Positions 2,686 through 6,857 of a DNA stretch of 64,000 nt are shown here, in pieces. Positions within the stretch are counted from its first letter, which is position 1; every line of letters starts with the position of its first letter. The position numbers and the translations under genes were made by a program. Under the pieces are notes generated by a model. That model did no database searches and was not told where the DNA came from. It was given only the letters and a program-made list of their open reading frames with translations. This DNA is from a virus (lineage: Duplodnaviria; Heunggongvirae; Uroviricota; Caudoviricetes; Demerecviridae), in the IMG/VR virus record IMGVR_UViG_2974606035_000001, positions 3,086 to 67,085 of that record. One strand, given 5' to 3'.

Positions 2686-3142
2686 ATCGTCGATTCCTTA
2701 TAATGAATAAGTTTACCGCCGATAGGCTTTAAGATATACCCAATTTTTAAAGAGCGCGGCGGTAAACTTTCCGCCGTGTAGTTCGTCATTGCCGCCCTAC
2801 GAGATAAATAATAACAAACAACGAAAAAGGCGCAACCTTATATTTGTAAAGAAATGTAAAGACAAACGCCACCGGACACCGTGCGGCGACCTGGGCGCAG
2901 CGCGTTAAAATTAAAAGAAACGGGCGCGCGAATACCACAAAACATAGCAGATAAGCAAGTAATTTTTTCATTTATATTTGCTTTGCCCTACTTGACAAAA
3001 TCCAAAAAGCTCGTGGCAGCGATAAACGACGTGGCCCCTTATGATTGGATGGCCAAAAACTTTATTGCGTTCTGGGGCGTTTTAGGCGCATTCTAGCCTT
3101 GTTGATAACTTATCCCCAAAAGCAAAAATGAAATTTTCCTAG

Positions 3143-3175
3143 TTATCCACTTGACTTTTATTTTCCAGTGGATAA
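3143..3175. promoter_or_regulatory. inverted pair of DnaA boxes (TTATCCAC ... GTGGATAA, 18-bp spacer)
   Basis: exact 8/9-mer match to DnaA box consensus TTATCCACA in both orientations. Confidence 0.5.
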
Positions 3176-3231
3176 CTACTTATTTTATAAAATAAATTAA
3201 TTGACTTTTATTTGTTAGTATGCATCGGAAA

Positions 3232-3312
3232 GATAGCAGACTATTAATCACTAGGATGATAATCATGCTGGTGGATTGTAACGACCTGAATTATTAGCAG
3301 ACTATTAATCAC
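3232..3312. repeat. two direct copies of AGCAGACTATTAATCAC
   Basis: seen directly at 3232-3248 and 3296-3312. Confidence 0.6.
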
Positions 3313-3387
3313 AGAAAAACTCATTAGCCAACTAACTATTTCATGATATATAATATACATATAAATTAATGAGAAATAATAATTATA

Positions 3388-3482
3388 TGAAATCATCACC
3401 AGTATAATAATAACTATAAGAAATCATCACCAGTATAATAATAACTATATGAAATCATCACCATTATAATAATAACAATAAG
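3388..3482. repeat. three tandem copies of ~32-bp unit (TAAGAAATCATCACCAGTATAATAATAACTA)
   Basis: direct reading; near-identical copies. Confidence 0.7.
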
Positions 3483-3519
3483 AAACTATCGGCATAAGTG
3501 AGAACCACTATCATTTAAG

Positions 3520-3540
3520 TTATCCACAACGTTATCCACA
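3520..3540 (+). promoter_or_regulatory. two direct DnaA boxes TTATCCACA separated by 3 bp
   Basis: exact consensus 9-mers at 3520-3528 and 3532-3540. Confidence 0.55.
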
Positions 3541-3590
3541 GCACAAAATAATTTGACACGATAGGCGGCGATATAAGGACTTTTACACAG

Positions 3591-3628
3591 GCTTATCCAC
3601 AGGTTATCCTACTGTATAAATATACAGG
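3591..3628. repeat. left arm of long inverted repeat: DnaA box + degenerate DnaA box + LexA-type box CTGTATAAATATACAG
   Basis: reverse complement recurs at 5341-5381; CTGT-N8-ACAG with AT-rich core. Confidence 0.6.
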
Positions 3629-3780
3629 GTAGAAAGGCAGTGTTAACAACTGCAATCAATTTTATGCGGCCTAAAACGCTTTCTAACGAGCTAAATGCGG
3701 TGGGGTAATATTAAAGTAAAGCCTTCACCCGTCGCCCTGGTGGCTTCGCCGTGTTTTGCTATTTTGTAAAGTTTTGTAAA

Positions 3781-3815
3781 GGCCGCCTTTTATGGTGGCC
3801 TTTTTTGTTATAATG
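3781..3815 (+). terminator. rho-independent terminator (AGGCCGCC-loop-GGTGGCCT + T6)
   Basis: 8-bp GC stem followed by TTTTTT on plus strand. Confidence 0.6.
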
Positions 3816-3870
3816 CCTTTACACCGTTTGAGGACGGTTGAAAATTTTCCCAAAAATTTGGAGGCTTAAA

Positions 3871-4101
3871 ATGGTTGCTTATTCTTCTTCTGATGCTCTT
3901 TTCACTGGTAAAGGCTGGGTATCAAATCGCTGGATTATTCAAGAAATGGTGCAAGAATACGGCATTGCTAAAACTTATAATACCATTCAGGCGCTTTATG
4001 ATAATGATCAGATTGATCAGCAAACGGCGGGCTTTTTGCTGGATACCCTGAAGGCGGAACACTGCACCAAAAAGCAAGCTGCAAAAATTATTTTAATGTA
4101 A
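3871..4101 (+). CDS. hypothetical protein (77 aa from internal ATG with GGAGG RBS)
   Basis: ORF track 3838-4101; RBS GGAGG 7 nt before ATG 3871. Confidence 0.45.
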   Translation: MVAYSSSDALFTGKGWVSNRWIIQEMVQEYGIAKTYNTIQALYDNDQIDQQTAGFLLDTLKAEHCTKKQAAKIILM

Positions 4102-4150
4102 GTAATAACGGGGGATATAATATCCCCCACTAACTAGGGGAGTATTACTA

Positions 4151-4333
4151 ATGGTTATTTTTCGAGCTATTTTGGCGGGTATCTTGGGTGCTATTTTAAC
4201 CCTTTTTGCTACCGCTTACGGTATTCAGGATTCCTATTGCGGTTTAGCAAACACAAAACCTATGGTTACTATTGGCGCGGGTATCGCTGTATTTTCTTAT
4301 CTGCTGGGCTGCATGAATAGTAAAGGAGAATAA
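4151..4333 (+). CDS. small membrane protein (60 aa)
   Basis: ORF track; hydrophobic. Confidence 0.4.
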   Translation: MVIFRAILAGILGAILTLFATAYGIQDSYCGLANTKPMVTIGAGIAVFSYLLGCMNSKGE

Positions 4334-4336
4334 AAA

Positions 4337-4549
4337 ATGATCCGCAACGTTTCGCTTGCACGTTCGAAAGGTTTTAAGCTGGTGGATGCTAACACGTTCG
4401 AGCGTCCTGATTGTAAAATCGAATATGTAGCACGTAACAAAAACGCTTTTCGTGTTACCGAGAAAAAATTTGATAAGCGCGGCAACGTGATCACTGAAAC
4501 GGTTAAATATTTTGCCACCTTTTACGCTGCATTTCGTGGGGTACTATGA
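4337..4549 (+). CDS. hypothetical protein (70 aa)
   Basis: ORF track; AAGGAG RBS. Confidence 0.45.
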   Translation: MIRNVSLARSKGFKLVDANTFERPDCKIEYVARNKNAFRVTEKKFDKRGNVITETVKYFATFYAAFRGVL

Positions 4550-4672
4550 AAAGCGTTATTGTTGTTCTCCTTGCAATGGCTGGCGGTTTTATCGCCACCT
4601 TATTTAAGAATGATCCCGTTTCGTTGGGTATCTTTATGCTTTTATCGGGCTATCTGATCGGGAGGTTGTCAA

Positions 4673-5017
4673 ATGGTTATTTATGAGGGCAATCGCTTTG
4701 TTGCTAATTGCCGCCCGGCATTGTTAGCAAACTATTTGAATCAGCTTTCACCAGCTTATAAGGGCGTTATTAATATTTACGAGGGTAAGGCACATTATAA
4801 AATTAATGCGGTCGTTGCCCGTGAACTAGCATTTCAATTTTTGACCTTTGCATCTTGTGATATTCAGGTCATGGGTGAAGCATTAATTGCAGAAAATGAA
4901 GAGGATTTTATTAATATTTTCCGCAAGGTATGCACTGAGCGCCTGATAATGAAAGGCGCGTATATTCAATCCACCGCTGATAGTATTGAAACAGCGTTTC
5001 GAAAGGTGGCGCAATGA
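4673..5017 (+). CDS. hypothetical protein (114 aa)
   Basis: ORF track; GGGAGG RBS. Confidence 0.5.
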   Translation: MVIYEGNRFVANCRPALLANYLNQLSPAYKGVINIYEGKAHYKINAVVARELAFQFLTFASCDIQVMGEALIAENEEDFINIFRKVCTERLIMKGAYIQSTADSIETAFRKVAQ

Positions 5018-5157
5018 GATTATATATTTTCGTTGGTAATGTTGAGGCAGCTAATGATTCCGCTGGTGGCGATAACGTTCGCCGCTATTGGCAGAAATAT
5101 ATTTACTAGGAGTAATAATCACGGGGCGCAACTATAGGGAAGTGCCCCCCCCCAATT

Positions 5158-5182
5158 CTCAAATGAGAATCATTCTCATTTG
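5158..5182. repeat. perfect palindrome AATGAGAATCATTCTCATT
   Basis: seen directly. Confidence 0.6.
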
Positions 5183-5340
5183 ACCGCGCCCGCGATGGTT
5201 AGCCTGCTAATGGTTAGGGTGTTACGTGTCGCCTTGTGTGATCGTTAGCTCGCTAACTAATTTTCAAGCCTCCTCCAATTTTGCCCTTGTTTTAGTCTAG
5301 GACGTTTTAACGCTATATTAGAACTATTCACTGCGTAGGA

Positions 5341-5381
5341 ATACTGTATAAATATACAGTAGGATAAGCTGTGGATAAGTC
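5341..5381. repeat. right arm of long inverted repeat: LexA-type box TACTGTATAAATATACAGTA + DnaA boxes (GGATAAG, TGTGGATAAG)
   Basis: reverse complement of 3591-3628. Confidence 0.6.
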
Positions 5382-5442
5382 TGTTAATAACGCCTCAAAA
5401 TGGCTAGGATTCTGTCAAGTCAAATCGTGCTGTTAATAAGTC

Positions 5443-5452
5443 TGTGGATAAC
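5443..5452 (-). promoter_or_regulatory. DnaA box (TGTGGATAAC)
   Basis: consensus match. Confidence 0.45.
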
Positions 5453-5479
5453 TTAAATAACAGTGTTTCTCACTTCCGT

Positions 5480-5690
5480 TCTTAAATGCGAATTATTATC
5501 ATTTGTATTCCCCTATCTAACTAATAATCATTTCACTTCCTGAATAATTTTCATTCCACTTTTTAAATAAGAATCATTCCACTTTTTAAATGATAATGAT
5601 TCTCATTTCACTTTCTAAATGCGAATCATTATCATTCTCATTCCGCTTTTTAAATGAGAATGATTCTTATTATCATTCGTATTTAGCGCA
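5480..5690. repeat. about 5 direct copies of ~20-bp unit TTTAAATG(N)GAATCATT..TCAT
   Basis: read directly: cttaaatgcgaattattatcat / tttaaataagaatcattcc / tttaaatgataatgattctcat / tctaaatgcgaatcattatcat / tttaaatgagaatgattcttat. Confidence 0.6.
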
Positions 5691-5718
5691 GGGCAATTGC
5701 CCTGCGCTTTTGTGCAAA
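5690..5718 (+). terminator. 22-bp perfect palindrome GCGCAGGGCAATTGCCCTGCGC followed by TTTTGTG
   Basis: hairpin + T-run on plus strand. Confidence 0.5.
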
Positions 5719-6447
5719 TCCGACATTGCTCCACGGGTGTTACGCGTGGGCGTGTATGTGCAAATCCGACAATTTTTGGTAGTGTGCAAATCCGACCCGA
5801 AAAATTTTTATAGTGTGCAAATCCGACAATGAATTTTCCCAAAAACTCCAGCAATCCGATGCTGCGCATCAATCCTGTGGAATTAGCTAGAATATGTGCA
5901 GATCCGACATGGGTTTATTTGTGCGAATCCTACAAGATTTTTGTGACTTCGATTGGAGGGTGTGTGATTGTGTGAGTTTGGGGAGAAGTTGAGAGATCGA
6001 GAGAAATTTGAGGGAACTGCGAGAGGGCCGCATGTTTGGTGCGGAGCACCTGATTTGCGGGGATTTTGGGGAAGAGTTGAGAAGATTTGGGTTAATTTGA
6101 GATAAGTGCAGATAAAGTAAAATTTTATTAGCTAAATAGGGCAAAATAGCTTGACAAGCGAAAATTCTTGTGGCTCTAAAAACTCAGGCAATCATGGGCC
6201 TTCGGCCCGAAATAATGCTGCCATTTTCAGGAGATTATATGCCCATGAAAACTTAGGCAATTGTGCAAATCCGACCAGTTTTTAAATTTATGTCAGTGTG
6301 CAAATCCGACAGTAATTTCTGGAAATGTGTTTTGGAAAAATGTCTCCTAGAAATAACCGCCCTCCCCATAACCGCCCTGTATAGGAAAACCGGCCTAGGA
6401 TATTTATAGCAGGAGAGAAACTGCCCTAGAACATGTGCAAATCCGAT
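5711..6447. repeat. array of ~9 dispersed direct copies of TGTGCAAATCCGAC(A/C) motif (5711, 5756, 5783, 5813, 5895, 5920 degenerate, 6262, 6297, 6434)
   Basis: seen directly; irregular spacing 25-340 bp; an extra copy lies inside CDS at 9046-9060. Confidence 0.7.
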
Positions 6448-6857
6448 TTAAAGTTTAGTGTAAACTCTAGAGTTAGTGTTCAACTATTCCTAGAAACTTA
6501 GGAGTCTAGAAGAAAGTGTTGTGCCATCCTAGCAGAAGAGCGGCAACCGGTGTATCATCTTGAACACAGATATTGCCTTTAAATATTTTTTAGTTATTTA
6601 AAAGTAAATATACCCCCCATTTCATGAGAGTTAGCCCCTCTAGGCGCGTGCGATTTGATACATCCTCCTAAGTCTCGGTGTGGAAGAACAATTGACGAGA
6701 ACCTGCGAACAGAACCGTCATCAAGTGTTTTCCTACGAGGAATGATGTAAATCTACGGCCTAGAGGTAAAAACAAGTTGATGTTTTTAATCTATGAGATT
6801 ATTATAACACATTATTCTCACGAATGTCAAGCAGATTTCGTTATTTTTAAATTTTCG

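What the first reader, a model, noticed from the sequence alone, without database searches (positions are those of the whole stretch)
3591..5381. Pair of 40-bp inverted repeats, each carrying a perfect LexA-type SOS box plus DnaA boxes, bracketing a 1.7-kb cassette of small plus-strand genes
3591-3628 (GGCTTATCCACAGGTTATCCTACTGTATAAATATACAG) recurs as its reverse complement at 5341-5381. Each arm has CTGT-N8-ACAG with an (AT)-rich core, which matches the LexA box and not merely an AT palindrome. Each is directly abutted by DnaA boxes. The arms flank the only plus-strand ORFs in this part of the genome (3871-5108, all with good RBSs) and a strong terminator (3781-3815). Co-location of LexA and DnaA sites suggests the cassette, or DNA transfer or replication from it, is wired to host SOS and replication status. 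Alternatively the IR is a recombination or packaging structure.
Basis: seen in the sequence. Interest (0 to 1): 0.75.

Follow-up and report, generated by a model that had tools for sequence, protein, structure and literature searches.

The report
T5-type injection-stop repeats carrying LexA boxes
The two inverted repeats are this Salmonella T5-like phage's copy of the already described DnaA-box repeats that flank a block of first-injected genes, and the new point is that each also carries a top-grade binding site for the host SOS repressor LexA, conserved across the whole phage family and apparently never reported.

Summary
The window is Salmonella phage SP3, a T5 relative. The two arms are the inner ends (IRD, IRD') of the published 131-bp inverted repeats IRC-spacer-IRD and IRD'-spacer-IRC' in the terminal repeat. 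They bracket the rightward pre-early genes (T5.012-015 homologues), and the distal arm opens the non-coding injection-stop region. The repeats, their paired DnaA boxes and the variable distance between them are already described (Davison 2020).

LexA is mentioned nowhere in that paper, and my literature searches found no paper linking LexA to these repeats. Yet the boxes score 28.2 and 24.2 bits on a LexA matrix; the next best site in 64 kb scores 16.0. Strong boxes sit in both arms of 29 close relatives and in Proteus, Pectobacterium and Vibrio relatives. 57 of 71 lie within 30 bp of a DnaA box.

They do not overlap the block's conserved promoter, and the block never inverts.

Best reading: host LexA and DnaA dock on both borders of the first-transferred DNA. 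Their function is untested.

The parts
3517..3542 (+). IRC: outer part of the left (A2-proximal) arm, with two consensus DnaA boxes TTATCCACA at 3520-3528 and 3532-3540, 3 bp apart
   Evidence: Exact matches. Aligns with the outer part of the right arm and with T5 and 28 other relatives. Named IRC in Davison 2020.
3543..3580 (+). Spacer of the left arm. It is less conserved between the two arms, but TTGAC(A) is kept.
3581..3611 (+). IRD DnaA part: TTTTACACA (3581-3589), TTATCCACA (3593-3601) and the half-box TTATCCTA (3604-3611)
   Evidence: Columns are 94.5% identical across 58 arms.
3610..3629 (.). Left LexA-type box TACTGTATAAATATACAGGG (core CTGT-N8-ACAG at 3612-3627)
   Evidence: 24.2 bits, second best site in the window. 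Present in the homologous position in 29 of 29 distinct close relatives, scores 19.0-28.2.
3628..3764 (+). Conserved non-coding block A next to the left box. Function unknown.
   Evidence: 86-98% identity in most Tequintavirus relatives. No RNA-structure signal on either strand: z = -0.47 and +1.14.
3619..3646 (-). Promoter-like site TTAACA-16-TATATT pointing leftwards. Its -10 hexamer lies inside the left LexA box.
   Evidence: 10 of 12 consensus match. TTAACA is conserved in most left arms but not in the T5-type ones. No transcript evidence.
3778..3814 (+). Terminator hairpin (3778-3803) with T-run, running into an extended -10 promoter TGtTATAAT (3806-3814) for the cassette
   Evidence: Conserved in 26 relatives with differing loop and stem bases; TGnTATAAT is kept in 24 of 26. 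In relatives this block follows a T5.011-type gene that SP3 lacks.
3871..4101 (+). Pre-early ORF, 76 aa, phrog_5145 (T5.012 homologue)
4151..4333 (+). Pre-early ORF, 60 aa, phrog_5607 (T5.013-type small membrane protein)
4337..4549 (+). Pre-early ORF, 70 aa, annotated as an endonuclease that nicks abasic sites made by host Ung (phrog_4227; T5.014 homologue)
   Evidence: Function as cited.
4546..4686 (+). Pre-early ORF, 46 aa, phrog_19184
4673..5017 (+). Pre-early ORF, 114 aa, phrog_4379 (T5.015 homologue)
5014..5109 (+). Pre-early ORF, 31 aa, phrog_22819
5342..5361 (.). Right LexA-type box TACTGTATAAATATACAGTA (core 5344-5359). It differs at 1 of 20 positions from the textbook consensus TACTG(TA)5CAGTA.
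   Evidence: 28.2 bits, best site in the window and above all 28 E. coli training sites. At least 25.4 bits in 29 of 29 relatives.
5362..5390 (-). IRD' DnaA part: half-box TTATCC, TTATCCACA (5370-5378) and the variant TTATTAACA (5382-5390)
5391..5455 (-). Spacer plus IRC': variant box TTATTAACA (5431-5439) and consensus TTATCCACA (5443-5451)
   Evidence: Named IRD'-spacer-IRC', the favoured iss candidate, in Davison 2020.
5456..6446 (.). Rest of the non-coding injection-stop region (T5 'Repeat Region 3'). It holds AT-rich Fur-box-like repeats at 5159-5680 and eight GTGCAAATCCGACA repeats at 5704-6446.
   Evidence: T5 annotates iss at the equivalent place.

Best explanation
This is phage SP3's copy of the T5-family inverted repeats IRC-spacer-IRD and IRD'-spacer-IRC'. 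They lie in the terminal repeat, which enters the cell first. They border the rightward block of pre-early genes, and the distal arm opens the non-coding injection-stop region.

Each arm is a composite landing site for host proteins: two pairs of DnaA boxes, then one consensus-grade LexA operator at the end facing the gene block.

The working model is that DnaA and a LexA dimer occupy both arms as soon as the first-step-transfer DNA is inside an uninduced cell. This builds a host-protein/DNA complex at the two borders of the block. The module acts as an architectural or holding element of the paused first-step DNA, not as a classical operator on the block's promoter. Because LexA is destroyed when RecA is activated, occupancy of the arms would fall if infection or prior damage triggers SOS.

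Shown: identity with the published repeats, the quality of the LexA match, family-wide conservation, coupling to DnaA boxes, and enrichment in phage DNA. Inferred: that LexA actually binds, and everything about what follows from binding.
For: - Identity: the window is 100% identical to Salmonella phage SP3. Both arms align with T5 and 28 other distinct relatives. T5 annotates iss at the equivalent place. The repeats and DnaA boxes match Davison's description.
- LexA quality: 28.2 and 24.2 bits against 16.0 for the next best site in 64 kb.
- Conservation: the right box is at least 25.4 bits and the left at least 19.0 bits in 29 of 29 genomes. The 16-bp core columns are 96% identical, against 66% for the 20 columns just inside.
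- Distant relatives (A2 38-58% identical) infecting Proteus, Pectobacterium and Vibrio also carry strong boxes beside DnaA boxes on the borders of the same gene block. Their centres differ (ATATCCAT, ATATAATT, ATAAATAA) while CTGTA...ACAG is kept.
- Coupling: 57 of 71 distinct boxes of at least 20 bits in 972 kb of family loci lie within 30 bp of a consensus DnaA box. DnaA-box density is only 0.33 per kb.
- Phage specificity: the composite TTATCCACA-N0-30-CTGTAT-N4-ATACAG has 81 matches in IMG/VR but only 15 in 596 Gb of bacterial genomes. My own calculation puts chance at roughly 8 for the bacterial set.
- About 20 of the viral matches are on contigs with no A1/A2 homologue in the fetched locus. 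Two that I annotated have unrelated gene content. This points to a binder supplied by the host rather than by T5-specific proteins.
- Against an operator role: the block's own conserved promoter lies 0.19-2.2 kb from the left box. In T5 the annotated divergent promoters lie outside the arm.
Against: - No binding data exist. The LexA matrix was built from sites I recalled from memory.
- Conservation of the box is not stronger than that of the adjoining DnaA part of the arm. Conservation alone therefore cannot say which protein reads it.
- Four of 29 genomes have ACAG changed to ACAA in the left box. One Vibrio phage lineage (L055/L056) has only a 17.4-bit half-degraded box.
- Distant boxes were found with the same matrix, so the similarity of information profiles is partly circular.
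- It is not clear physically how proteins bound to DNA already inside the cell would stop further entry.
- As far as I know T5 plates on recA hosts (my recollection, not checked). LexA cleavage therefore cannot be essential for the second transfer step.
Confidence: 0.5

Rival explanations
1. Classical SOS operator. LexA bound at the boxes represses a promoter that overlaps them, so part of pre-early transcription responds to host DNA damage. The candidate is the leftward promoter-like site whose -10 lies in the left box, reading towards the leftward pre-early genes.
For: - TTAACA-16-TATATT (10 of 12) on the minus strand at 3646-3619 has its -10 inside the left box. TTAACA is conserved in most left arms.
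- The left arm sits between divergent gene blocks. In unrelated phage contigs the same composite also sits between divergent blocks.
- Established knowledge: LexA boxes in temperate phages and colicin operons work this way.
Against: - The -35 element is absent from the T5-type left arms.
- No comparable promoter overlaps the right box, which is the better conserved of the two.
- The cassette's conserved promoter is 0.19-2.2 kb away.
- T5's annotated promoters lie outside the arm.
- In pVp-1 and L124 the nearest good promoters are 150-250 bp from the box.
Confidence: 0.2
2. The palindrome is read by a phage protein, and its likeness to a LexA box is incidental or competitive. The candidate is the A1/A2 pair, needed for second-step transfer, which would bind or cut there. 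Davison proposed palindromes near iss as A1/A2 cleavage sites.
For: - A2 is a conserved DNA-binding protein of the family.
- Its model has an N-terminal three-helix domain resembling the GcrA, MogR and Myb DNA-binding domains.
- Davison lists a palindrome 'palD' next to IRD' and proposes cleavage at palindromes.
- Positions 6-9 of the phage boxes are more constrained than in E. coli LexA sites.
Against: - The match to the LexA consensus covers all informative positions, including the flanking TA.
- The box stays the same while A2 diverges to 38% identity.
- The same DnaA-LexA composite occurs in viral contigs with no A1/A2 in the fetched locus and with unrelated genes.
- A2 shows no similarity to LexA's winged-helix domain.
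Confidence: 0.12
3. Origin-like element. The DnaA-box arrays with an adjacent LexA site form a replication or DNA-unwinding start point on the first-transferred DNA, gated by SOS status.
For: - Eight DnaA or DnaA-like boxes sit in pairs 3 bp apart, reminiscent of oriC.
- AT-rich repeats lie nearby.
Against: - T5 origins were mapped near the genome centre, and replication genes are not on the first-transferred DNA (Davison's summary).
- No initiator or helicase-loader gene is in the block.
Confidence: 0.08
4. Recombination or DNA-structure element. The arms are substrates for inversion of the cassette or form cruciforms used in packaging or terminal-repeat formation.
For: - A 129-bp inverted repeat flanks a gene block of variable content.
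- The centre of the box flips between AAAT and ATTT among relatives. That would fit exchange between arms or template switching at the palindrome.
Against: - There is no inversion in 37 of 37 loci and no recombinase.
- The box palindrome has only 6-bp arms.
- The proximal arm is far from the terminal-repeat boundary.
Confidence: 0.03

Closest known systems
T5 inverted repeats IRC-spacer-IRD (Repeat Region 2) and IRD'-spacer-IRC' (Repeat Region 3, injection stop signal candidate); Heusterspreute 1987, Wang 2005, Davison 2015/2020
   Same: - Same place in the terminal repeat and same order of elements.
- Direct sequence homology with T5 (about 83% over the left arm).
- Paired DnaA boxes 3 bp apart.
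- Variable distance between the arms (1.7 kb here, up to 4.1 kb in relatives).
- Same flanking pre-early genes.
   Different: Nothing structural; SP3 is simply another member. SP3 lacks the T5.011-type gene and the hegG insertion. The published descriptions I could read do not mention LexA or SOS. The box is probably the palindrome listed there as palD. That is inferred from its position in the list and is not verified.
Gammaproteobacterial LexA operators (SOS boxes), e.g. E. coli dinD, umuDC, recN, sulA, colicin operons
   Same: Same sequence motif: CTGT-N8-ACAG with an A/T core and TA flanks. The score equals or exceeds that of the strongest chromosomal sites I used.
   Different: The boxes do not overlap a conserved promoter. 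They are paired as distant inverted copies, always next to DnaA boxes, and they sit in a strictly virulent phage. Binding is untested.
LexA-controlled switches of mobile elements (coliphage 186 tum, CTXphi PrstA, Bacillus phage GIL01 with gp7, N15 antC); from my own knowledge
   Same: A phage places a host LexA site in its own genome and so couples itself to the host SOS state.
   Different: Those are temperate or persistent elements in which the box overlaps a promoter that decides lysis versus lysogeny. Here the phage is virulent, and the box lies in non-coding border elements of the first-injected DNA.
oriC-type DnaA box arrays, and the E. coli uvrB control region where LexA and DnaA sites coexist (van den Berg 1985; from my own knowledge)
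   Same: Clustered consensus DnaA 9-mers lie close to a LexA site.
   Different: There is no evidence of replication initiation here. The composite is essentially absent from bacterial chromosomes: 15 matches in 596 Gb, near my own chance estimate.

Membership tests
T5-family iss-associated inverted repeats (IRC-spacer-IRD / IRD'-spacer-IRC') | Sequence homology with the T5 repeats | tested here: met
   The left arm aligns to T5 (L010/L013) over 122 of 131 bp at 83% and the right arm over 115 bp at 72%. Alignments to the other relatives run at 72-96%. Multiple alignment.
T5-family iss-associated inverted repeats (IRC-spacer-IRD / IRD'-spacer-IRC') | Two copies in inverted orientation in the terminal repeat. 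One lies between the divergent pre-early blocks; the other lies at the start of the long non-coding region before the early genes. | tested here: met
   Gene layout compared with T5 and SPC35 annotation. Arms at 3501-3629 and 5342-5470.
T5-family iss-associated inverted repeats (IRC-spacer-IRD / IRD'-spacer-IRC') | Eight DnaA or DnaA-like boxes in pairs separated by 3 bp, two pairs per arm | tested here: met
   Left arm: 3520/3532 and 3581/3593. Right arm: 5370/5382 and 5431/5443. Five are exact TTATCCACA.
T5-family iss-associated inverted repeats (IRC-spacer-IRD / IRD'-spacer-IRC') | Acts in cis as the injection stop signal | not testable with these tools
   This is unproven even for T5. A 2023 paper states that experimental studies of the functional role are lacking.
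LexA operator (gammaproteobacterial SOS box) | CTGT-N8-ACAG palindrome with an A/T-rich core, scoring within the range of verified sites | tested here: met
   28.2 and 24.2 bits; training sites range from 12.7 to 26.5. The matrix comes from sites recalled from memory.
LexA operator (gammaproteobacterial SOS box) | Bound by LexA in vitro or in vivo | not testable with these tools
   Needs EMSA, footprinting or ChIP.
LexA operator (gammaproteobacterial SOS box) | Overlaps or abuts a promoter whose output rises on SOS induction | tested here: inconclusive
   Only a 10-of-12 leftward promoter-like site overlaps the left box, and it is not conserved in T5-type arms. None overlaps the right box. The cassette promoter is 0.19-2.2 kb away.
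Replication origin with DnaA boxes | DnaA box cluster plus an unwinding element that supports initiation | not tested
   The boxes are present. The literature places T5 origins elsewhere.
Invertible DNA segment (Hin/Gin/Cin type) | Both orientations occur, and a site-specific recombinase is encoded in or next to the segment | tested here: not met
   Same orientation in 37 of 37 loci. No recombinase domain in any cassette ORF.
Structured small RNA next to the boxes | Folding energy beyond shuffles, or covarying pairs, or an Rfam match | tested here: not met
   z-scores are -0.47, +1.14, +0.68 and -0.65. One arm of the long predicted stem varies without compensation. No Rfam hit reaches its gathering score.

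The most novel reading that the evidence does not exclude
Host LexA, together with DnaA and perhaps Fur on the neighbouring repeats, is a working part of the T5-family injection-stop complex. Its RecA-triggered self-cleavage, set off by the A1-dependent breakdown of host DNA, helps time the release of the pause and the start of second-step transfer. The same DnaA-LexA composite in unrelated phage contigs would then mark a general, unrecognised way for virulent phages to use host repressors on their entering DNA.
Probability: 0.1. Interest if true: 0.85.

Novelty: new member of a known kind. Interest (0 to 1): 0.55.

Why it matters
How T5 pauses after injecting 8% of its genome, and how it restarts, has been open for more than 50 years. 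The only recent proposal invokes host DnaA on these very repeats, and no experiments exist. Next to the DnaA boxes sits a LexA site as good as any in E. coli. It is conserved from Salmonella to Vibrio phages and enriched in phage DNA but not in bacterial DNA. This adds a second named host protein to test, with standard tools: lexA(Def), lexA(Ind-) and recA hosts, box mutants, and ChIP on first-step DNA. It would also be an unusual case of a strictly virulent phage keeping SOS-repressor sites. If LexA does not bind, the element remains an ordinary member of a described repeat family.

Tried and rejected
1. Invertible cassette. tblastn of four cassette proteins and A2 against 41 oriented loci gave the same relative orientation in all 37 that carry cassette genes. 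Rejected.
2. The left box as operator of the cassette promoter. The conserved terminator plus TGnTATAAT block is separated from the box by a T5.011-type gene in most relatives. Rejected as a general mechanism.
3. Small RNA between box and cassette (3628-3764) or next to the right box (5200-5343). There is no folding signal, no compensatory changes and no Rfam family above threshold. Rejected.
5. The composite as a bacterial chromosomal motif. There are only 15 matches in 596 Gb, close to my rough chance estimate of about 8, and at least one (L152) looks like a T5-like fragment. Rejected.
6. Literature. Seven full-text searches and term look-ups in five papers found no link between LexA/SOS and T5-like terminal repeats. 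Davison 2015, Wang 2005 and Heusterspreute 1987 could not be read, so prior mention there cannot be excluded.
7. Information-content comparison of phage boxes with E. coli sites (Spearman 0.84 over 10 half-site positions). Kept only as weak support, because the distant boxes were found with the same matrix.
Full report
**What the window is.** Region 3300-5700 is 100% identical to Salmonella phage SP3 (MG387042 / NC_048001; window position = record position minus 3085). It is about 90% identical to many T5-like Salmonella, Escherichia and Klebsiella phages. SP3 is a Tequintavirus of the Demerecviridae. In annotated relatives (SPC35, T5) the matching stretch lies inside the left terminal repeat, the first-step-transfer DNA that enters the host first.

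**Check of the observation.**
Its partner is the reverse strand of 5344-5381. They agree at 34 of 38 positions, not exactly. A binomial estimate gives about 6e-7 such pairs by chance in 64 kb.
- The repeat is much longer than reported. 3501-3629 aligns without gaps to the reverse complement of 5342-5470 at 73% identity. It has two well-conserved ends and a looser middle.
- CTGT-N8-ACAG occurs five times in the window against 0.56 expected, and only the two arm copies have an all-A/T core.
- The 16-mer CTGTATAAATATACAG has an asymmetric centre (AAAT) and is in the same orientation in both arms. The repeat finder therefore listed it as a direct repeat.
- All five exact TTATCCACA boxes in the 64 kb fall in the two arms. 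With one-mismatch variants, each arm has two pairs of boxes 3 bp apart.
- The plus-strand ORFs at 3871-5109 are the only plus-strand genes in this neighbourhood, and all have phage protein families.
- The hairpin with T-run is at 3778-3809.

**How good the LexA match is.** I built a position matrix from 28 E. coli LexA sites recalled from memory (Lewis 1994; Fernandez de Henestrosa 2000), so it is approximate. The right box TACTGTATAAATATACAGTA scores 28.2 bits, above every training site (best 26.5). The left box TACTGTATAAATATACAGGG scores 24.2. The next best 20-mer in the window scores 16.0, and the window mean is -26.6 with sd 9.3. At the sequence level these are first-rank LexA sites.

**What is already known.** Davison's preprint 'Phage T5 two-step injection' describes three non-coding repeat regions in the T5 terminal repeat.
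- Region 2 holds the 131-bp IRC-spacer-IRD. Region 3 holds its inverted copy IRD'-spacer-IRC', the favoured candidate for the injection stop signal.
- Across 25 T5-like phages both copies carry DnaA boxes in pairs 3 bp apart, eight in all. The first were noted in 1987.
- The distance between the copies varies from 1.85 to 4.26 kb, and the genes between them are poorly conserved.
- He proposes that membrane-bound DnaA holds the DNA at these boxes and that A1/A2 cut it free.

SP3 fits this description point by point. The genes between are homologues of T5.012-T5.015, including the small nuclease that works with host Ung. A 2023 paper on BF23 states that experimental work on these sites is lacking.

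**What is not in the literature I could search.**
- 'LexA' and 'SOS' occur zero times in Davison's text.
- They are also absent from a 2026 preprint on T5 pre-early genes, a 2026 PNAS paper that discusses the stop signal, and the BF23 paper.
- Seven full-text searches combining LexA, SOS or DnaA box with T5, T5-like, Tequintavirus, Demerecviridae, terminal repeat or virulent phage found nothing relevant.
- Davison lists a palindrome 'palD' beside IRD' and treats palindromes as possible A1/A2 cutting sites. That is probably this box, but I could not verify it.
- Davison 2015, Wang 2005 and Heusterspreute 1987 are not held.

**Conservation in close relatives.** Using A2 as an anchor I fetched 39 loci from IMG/VR, T5 among them. 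Both arms were found by homology in every locus with enough flank, 1.8-4.1 kb apart. Results for 29 distinct genomes (58 arms):
- The right box scores at least 25.4 bits in all 29, and the left box at least 19.0.
- CTG at positions 3-5 never changes.
- The changes seen are T to G at position 6 (2 right arms), A to C at position 15 (1), single changes in the centre, and G to A in CAG (4 left arms).
- The centre switches between AAAT and ATTT many times in both arms.
- The 16 core columns are 96% identical and the 20 columns on the DnaA side 94.5%. The 20 columns on the cassette side are 66% identical.
- The box is thus part of a strongly constrained roughly 40-bp unit. Conservation by itself does not tell which protein reads it.

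**Conservation in distant relatives.** A2 homologues of 38-58% identity led to Proteus phage Stubb and a second Proteus phage, the Pectobacterium My1 type, Vibrio phages 70E37.6, Dax, Achelous and vspsw1, and the pVp-1 type.
- Nearly all carry boxes of 19-28 bits on one or both borders of the gene block that runs opposite to A2, each close to consensus DnaA boxes.
- The centres differ: ATATCCAT in 70E37.6, ATATAATT and ATAAATAA in others. CTGTA...ACAG is kept. In the Vibrio phages the spacing and orientation of the DnaA boxes relative to the box differ from T5.
- One Vibrio lineage (L055/L056) has only a 17.4-bit remnant.
- Over all 60 loci (972 kb, redundant) there are 71 distinct-context boxes of at least 20 bits. 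57 of them lie within 30 bp of a consensus DnaA box, whose density is 0.33 per kb.

**The composite is a phage feature.** The exact pattern TTATCCACA-N0-30-CTGTAT-N4-ATACAG has 81 matches in IMG/VR and only 15 in 596 Gb of bacterial and archaeal genomes. My rough calculation expects about 8 there by chance, and one match is clearly a T5-like fragment.
- About 50 viral matches are on 104-128-kb Demerecviridae contigs. Eight are on metagenomic contigs with A1, dmp and in most cases A2 homologues.
- About 20 are on contigs with no A1/A2 in the fetched locus. Two of these that I annotated have unrelated genes: an SU10-type portal and GP88 in one, CobT/VWA and AAA_5 in the other.
- In the clearest of these (L124, L133, L086 and others) the motif reads DnaA box, GG, DnaA box, 0-1 nt, LexA box. 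L124, L091, L133, L061 and L120, whose surroundings I read, place it inside long repeat-rich non-coding stretches; in L124 and L091 these lie between divergent gene blocks.
- SP3's TTATCCACAGGTTATCC--TACTGTAT looks like the same unit with two bases missing.
- A unit shared by phages that lack A1/A2 points to host proteins as the readers.

**Does it act as an operator?**
- The cassette has its own conserved control block: a hairpin terminator whose stem and loop differ between relatives while pairing is kept, followed at once by TGnTATAAT (3806-3814). This is intact in 24 of 26 relatives.
- In SP3 this block is about 190 bp from the left box. In most relatives a T5.011-type gene of about 1 kb lies between, and in T5 that gene has its own annotated promoter outside the arm.
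- The right box lies after the cassette.
- The one promoter-like site that overlaps a box is TTAACA-16-TATATT on the minus strand (3646-3619). Its -35 element is missing from T5-type arms, and nothing comparable exists at the right box.
- In pVp-1 and L124 the good promoters are 150-250 bp from the box.
- A classical operator role is therefore possible for one arm in some phages, but it does not explain the conserved pair.

**Other readings tested.**
- The cassette does not invert: 37 of 37 loci have the same orientation, and no recombinase is present.
- The conserved 137-bp block beside the left box (3628-3764) and the sequence beside the right box show no RNA-folding signal, no compensatory changes and no Rfam family.

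**Most likely mechanism.** I commit to the following, at about 0.5 overall.
- The arms are composite docking sites for host DnaA and LexA on the first-transferred DNA.
- They are occupied within seconds of entry in an uninduced cell.
- They act as architectural or holding elements at the two borders of the rightward pre-early block, with the distal one at the entrance of the stop region.
- I put the probability that LexA binds these sequences in vitro at about 0.8, given the score. That binding matters for the pause, for anchoring or for insulation is inference.
- Because T5's A1 triggers rapid host DNA breakdown, RecA activation and LexA loss during the pause are conceivable. This gives the more novel 'timer' reading, which I rate at about 0.1. 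My recollection that T5 grows on recA hosts argues against an essential role.

**Verdict.** The repeats, the DnaA boxes and the bracketed gene block are a known feature of T5-like phages, and SP3 is one more member. The LexA boxes are real, of the highest quality, family-wide, tied to the DnaA boxes and apparently unremarked. That part is worth an experiment. It adds a second named host protein, and standard hosts and mutants, to a long-standing question that currently has no data.

Noticed in passing
window 5159-5680: The AT-rich repeats and palindromes of the stop region (e.g. AAATGAGAATCATTCTCATTT) resemble Fur boxes. Six of the 12 sites in the whole window that match GATAATGATAATCATTATC at 14 or more of 19 positions fall in this 600 bp, whereas shuffles of the region give 0.04. 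An unrelated viral contig (L133) has GAGAATCATTCTCATTT right next to its DnaA-LexA unit. The stop region might carry sites for a third host repressor.
   Followed up: partly
L061, L086, L087, L090, L091, L104, L110, L113, L120, L124, L133, L136 (IMG/VR contigs): About 20 viral contigs have no A1/A2 homologue in the fetched locus but carry the same composite. In most it reads DnaA box, GG, DnaA box, then a LexA box 0-1 nt further on. In the five I read (L061, L091, L120, L124, L133) it sits in long repeat-rich non-coding regions; in L124 and L091 these lie between divergent gene blocks. L061 has at least five LexA-like boxes and five DnaA boxes in 600 bp.
   Followed up: partly
window 6801-6830, minus strand: A perfect sigma-70 promoter (TTGACA, 18 nt, TG-n-TATAAT; 12 of 12) points leftwards from the start of the early genes into the non-coding stop region, where no ORF follows.
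   Followed up: no
window 3612-3627 and 5344-5359; arms of L002-L040: The four central bases of the box switch between AAAT and ATTT repeatedly among close relatives, in either arm, while the palindromic arms stay fixed. This would fit template switching at the palindrome or exchange between the two inverted arms.
   Followed up: no
window 3764/3765: SP3 lacks the roughly 1-kb T5.011-type gene and its promoter, which most relatives carry between conserved block A and the terminator/promoter block. The junction is at 3764/3765. Ectopic expression of T5 gene 011 is reported to be toxic to E. coli.
   Followed up: partly
window 3778-3850: The terminator hairpin, and a second hairpin at about 3822-3842, differ between relatives in ways that keep pairing (e.g. 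GGCCGCC/GGTGGCC against GGTCGCC/GGCGACC). This suggests that both are functional RNA or DNA structures in the cassette leader.
   Followed up: no
window 5704-6446: Eight copies of GTGCAAATCCGACA lie at irregular spacing in the non-coding region. They probably correspond to the nine DRD repeats listed for T5. Their reader is unknown.
   Followed up: no
window 3094-3178 and 3375-3490: Left of the arm (T5 'Repeat Region 1') there is a 15-bp inverted pair of DnaA-like boxes (TAGTTATCCACTTGA / TCCAGTGGATAACTA) and three 31-bp tandem direct repeats.
   Followed up: no
L152 (MAG labelled Clostridia, 3,015-bp contig) and Campylobacter/Listeria-labelled phage records: A 3-kb contig binned into a Clostridia MAG carries both arms in inverted orientation, so it is evidently a T5-like phage fragment. 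Records named Campylobacter phage C13 and some 'Listeria' phages encode A2 at about 95% identity to Salmonella phages. This suggests mislabelled hosts or contamination.
   Followed up: no
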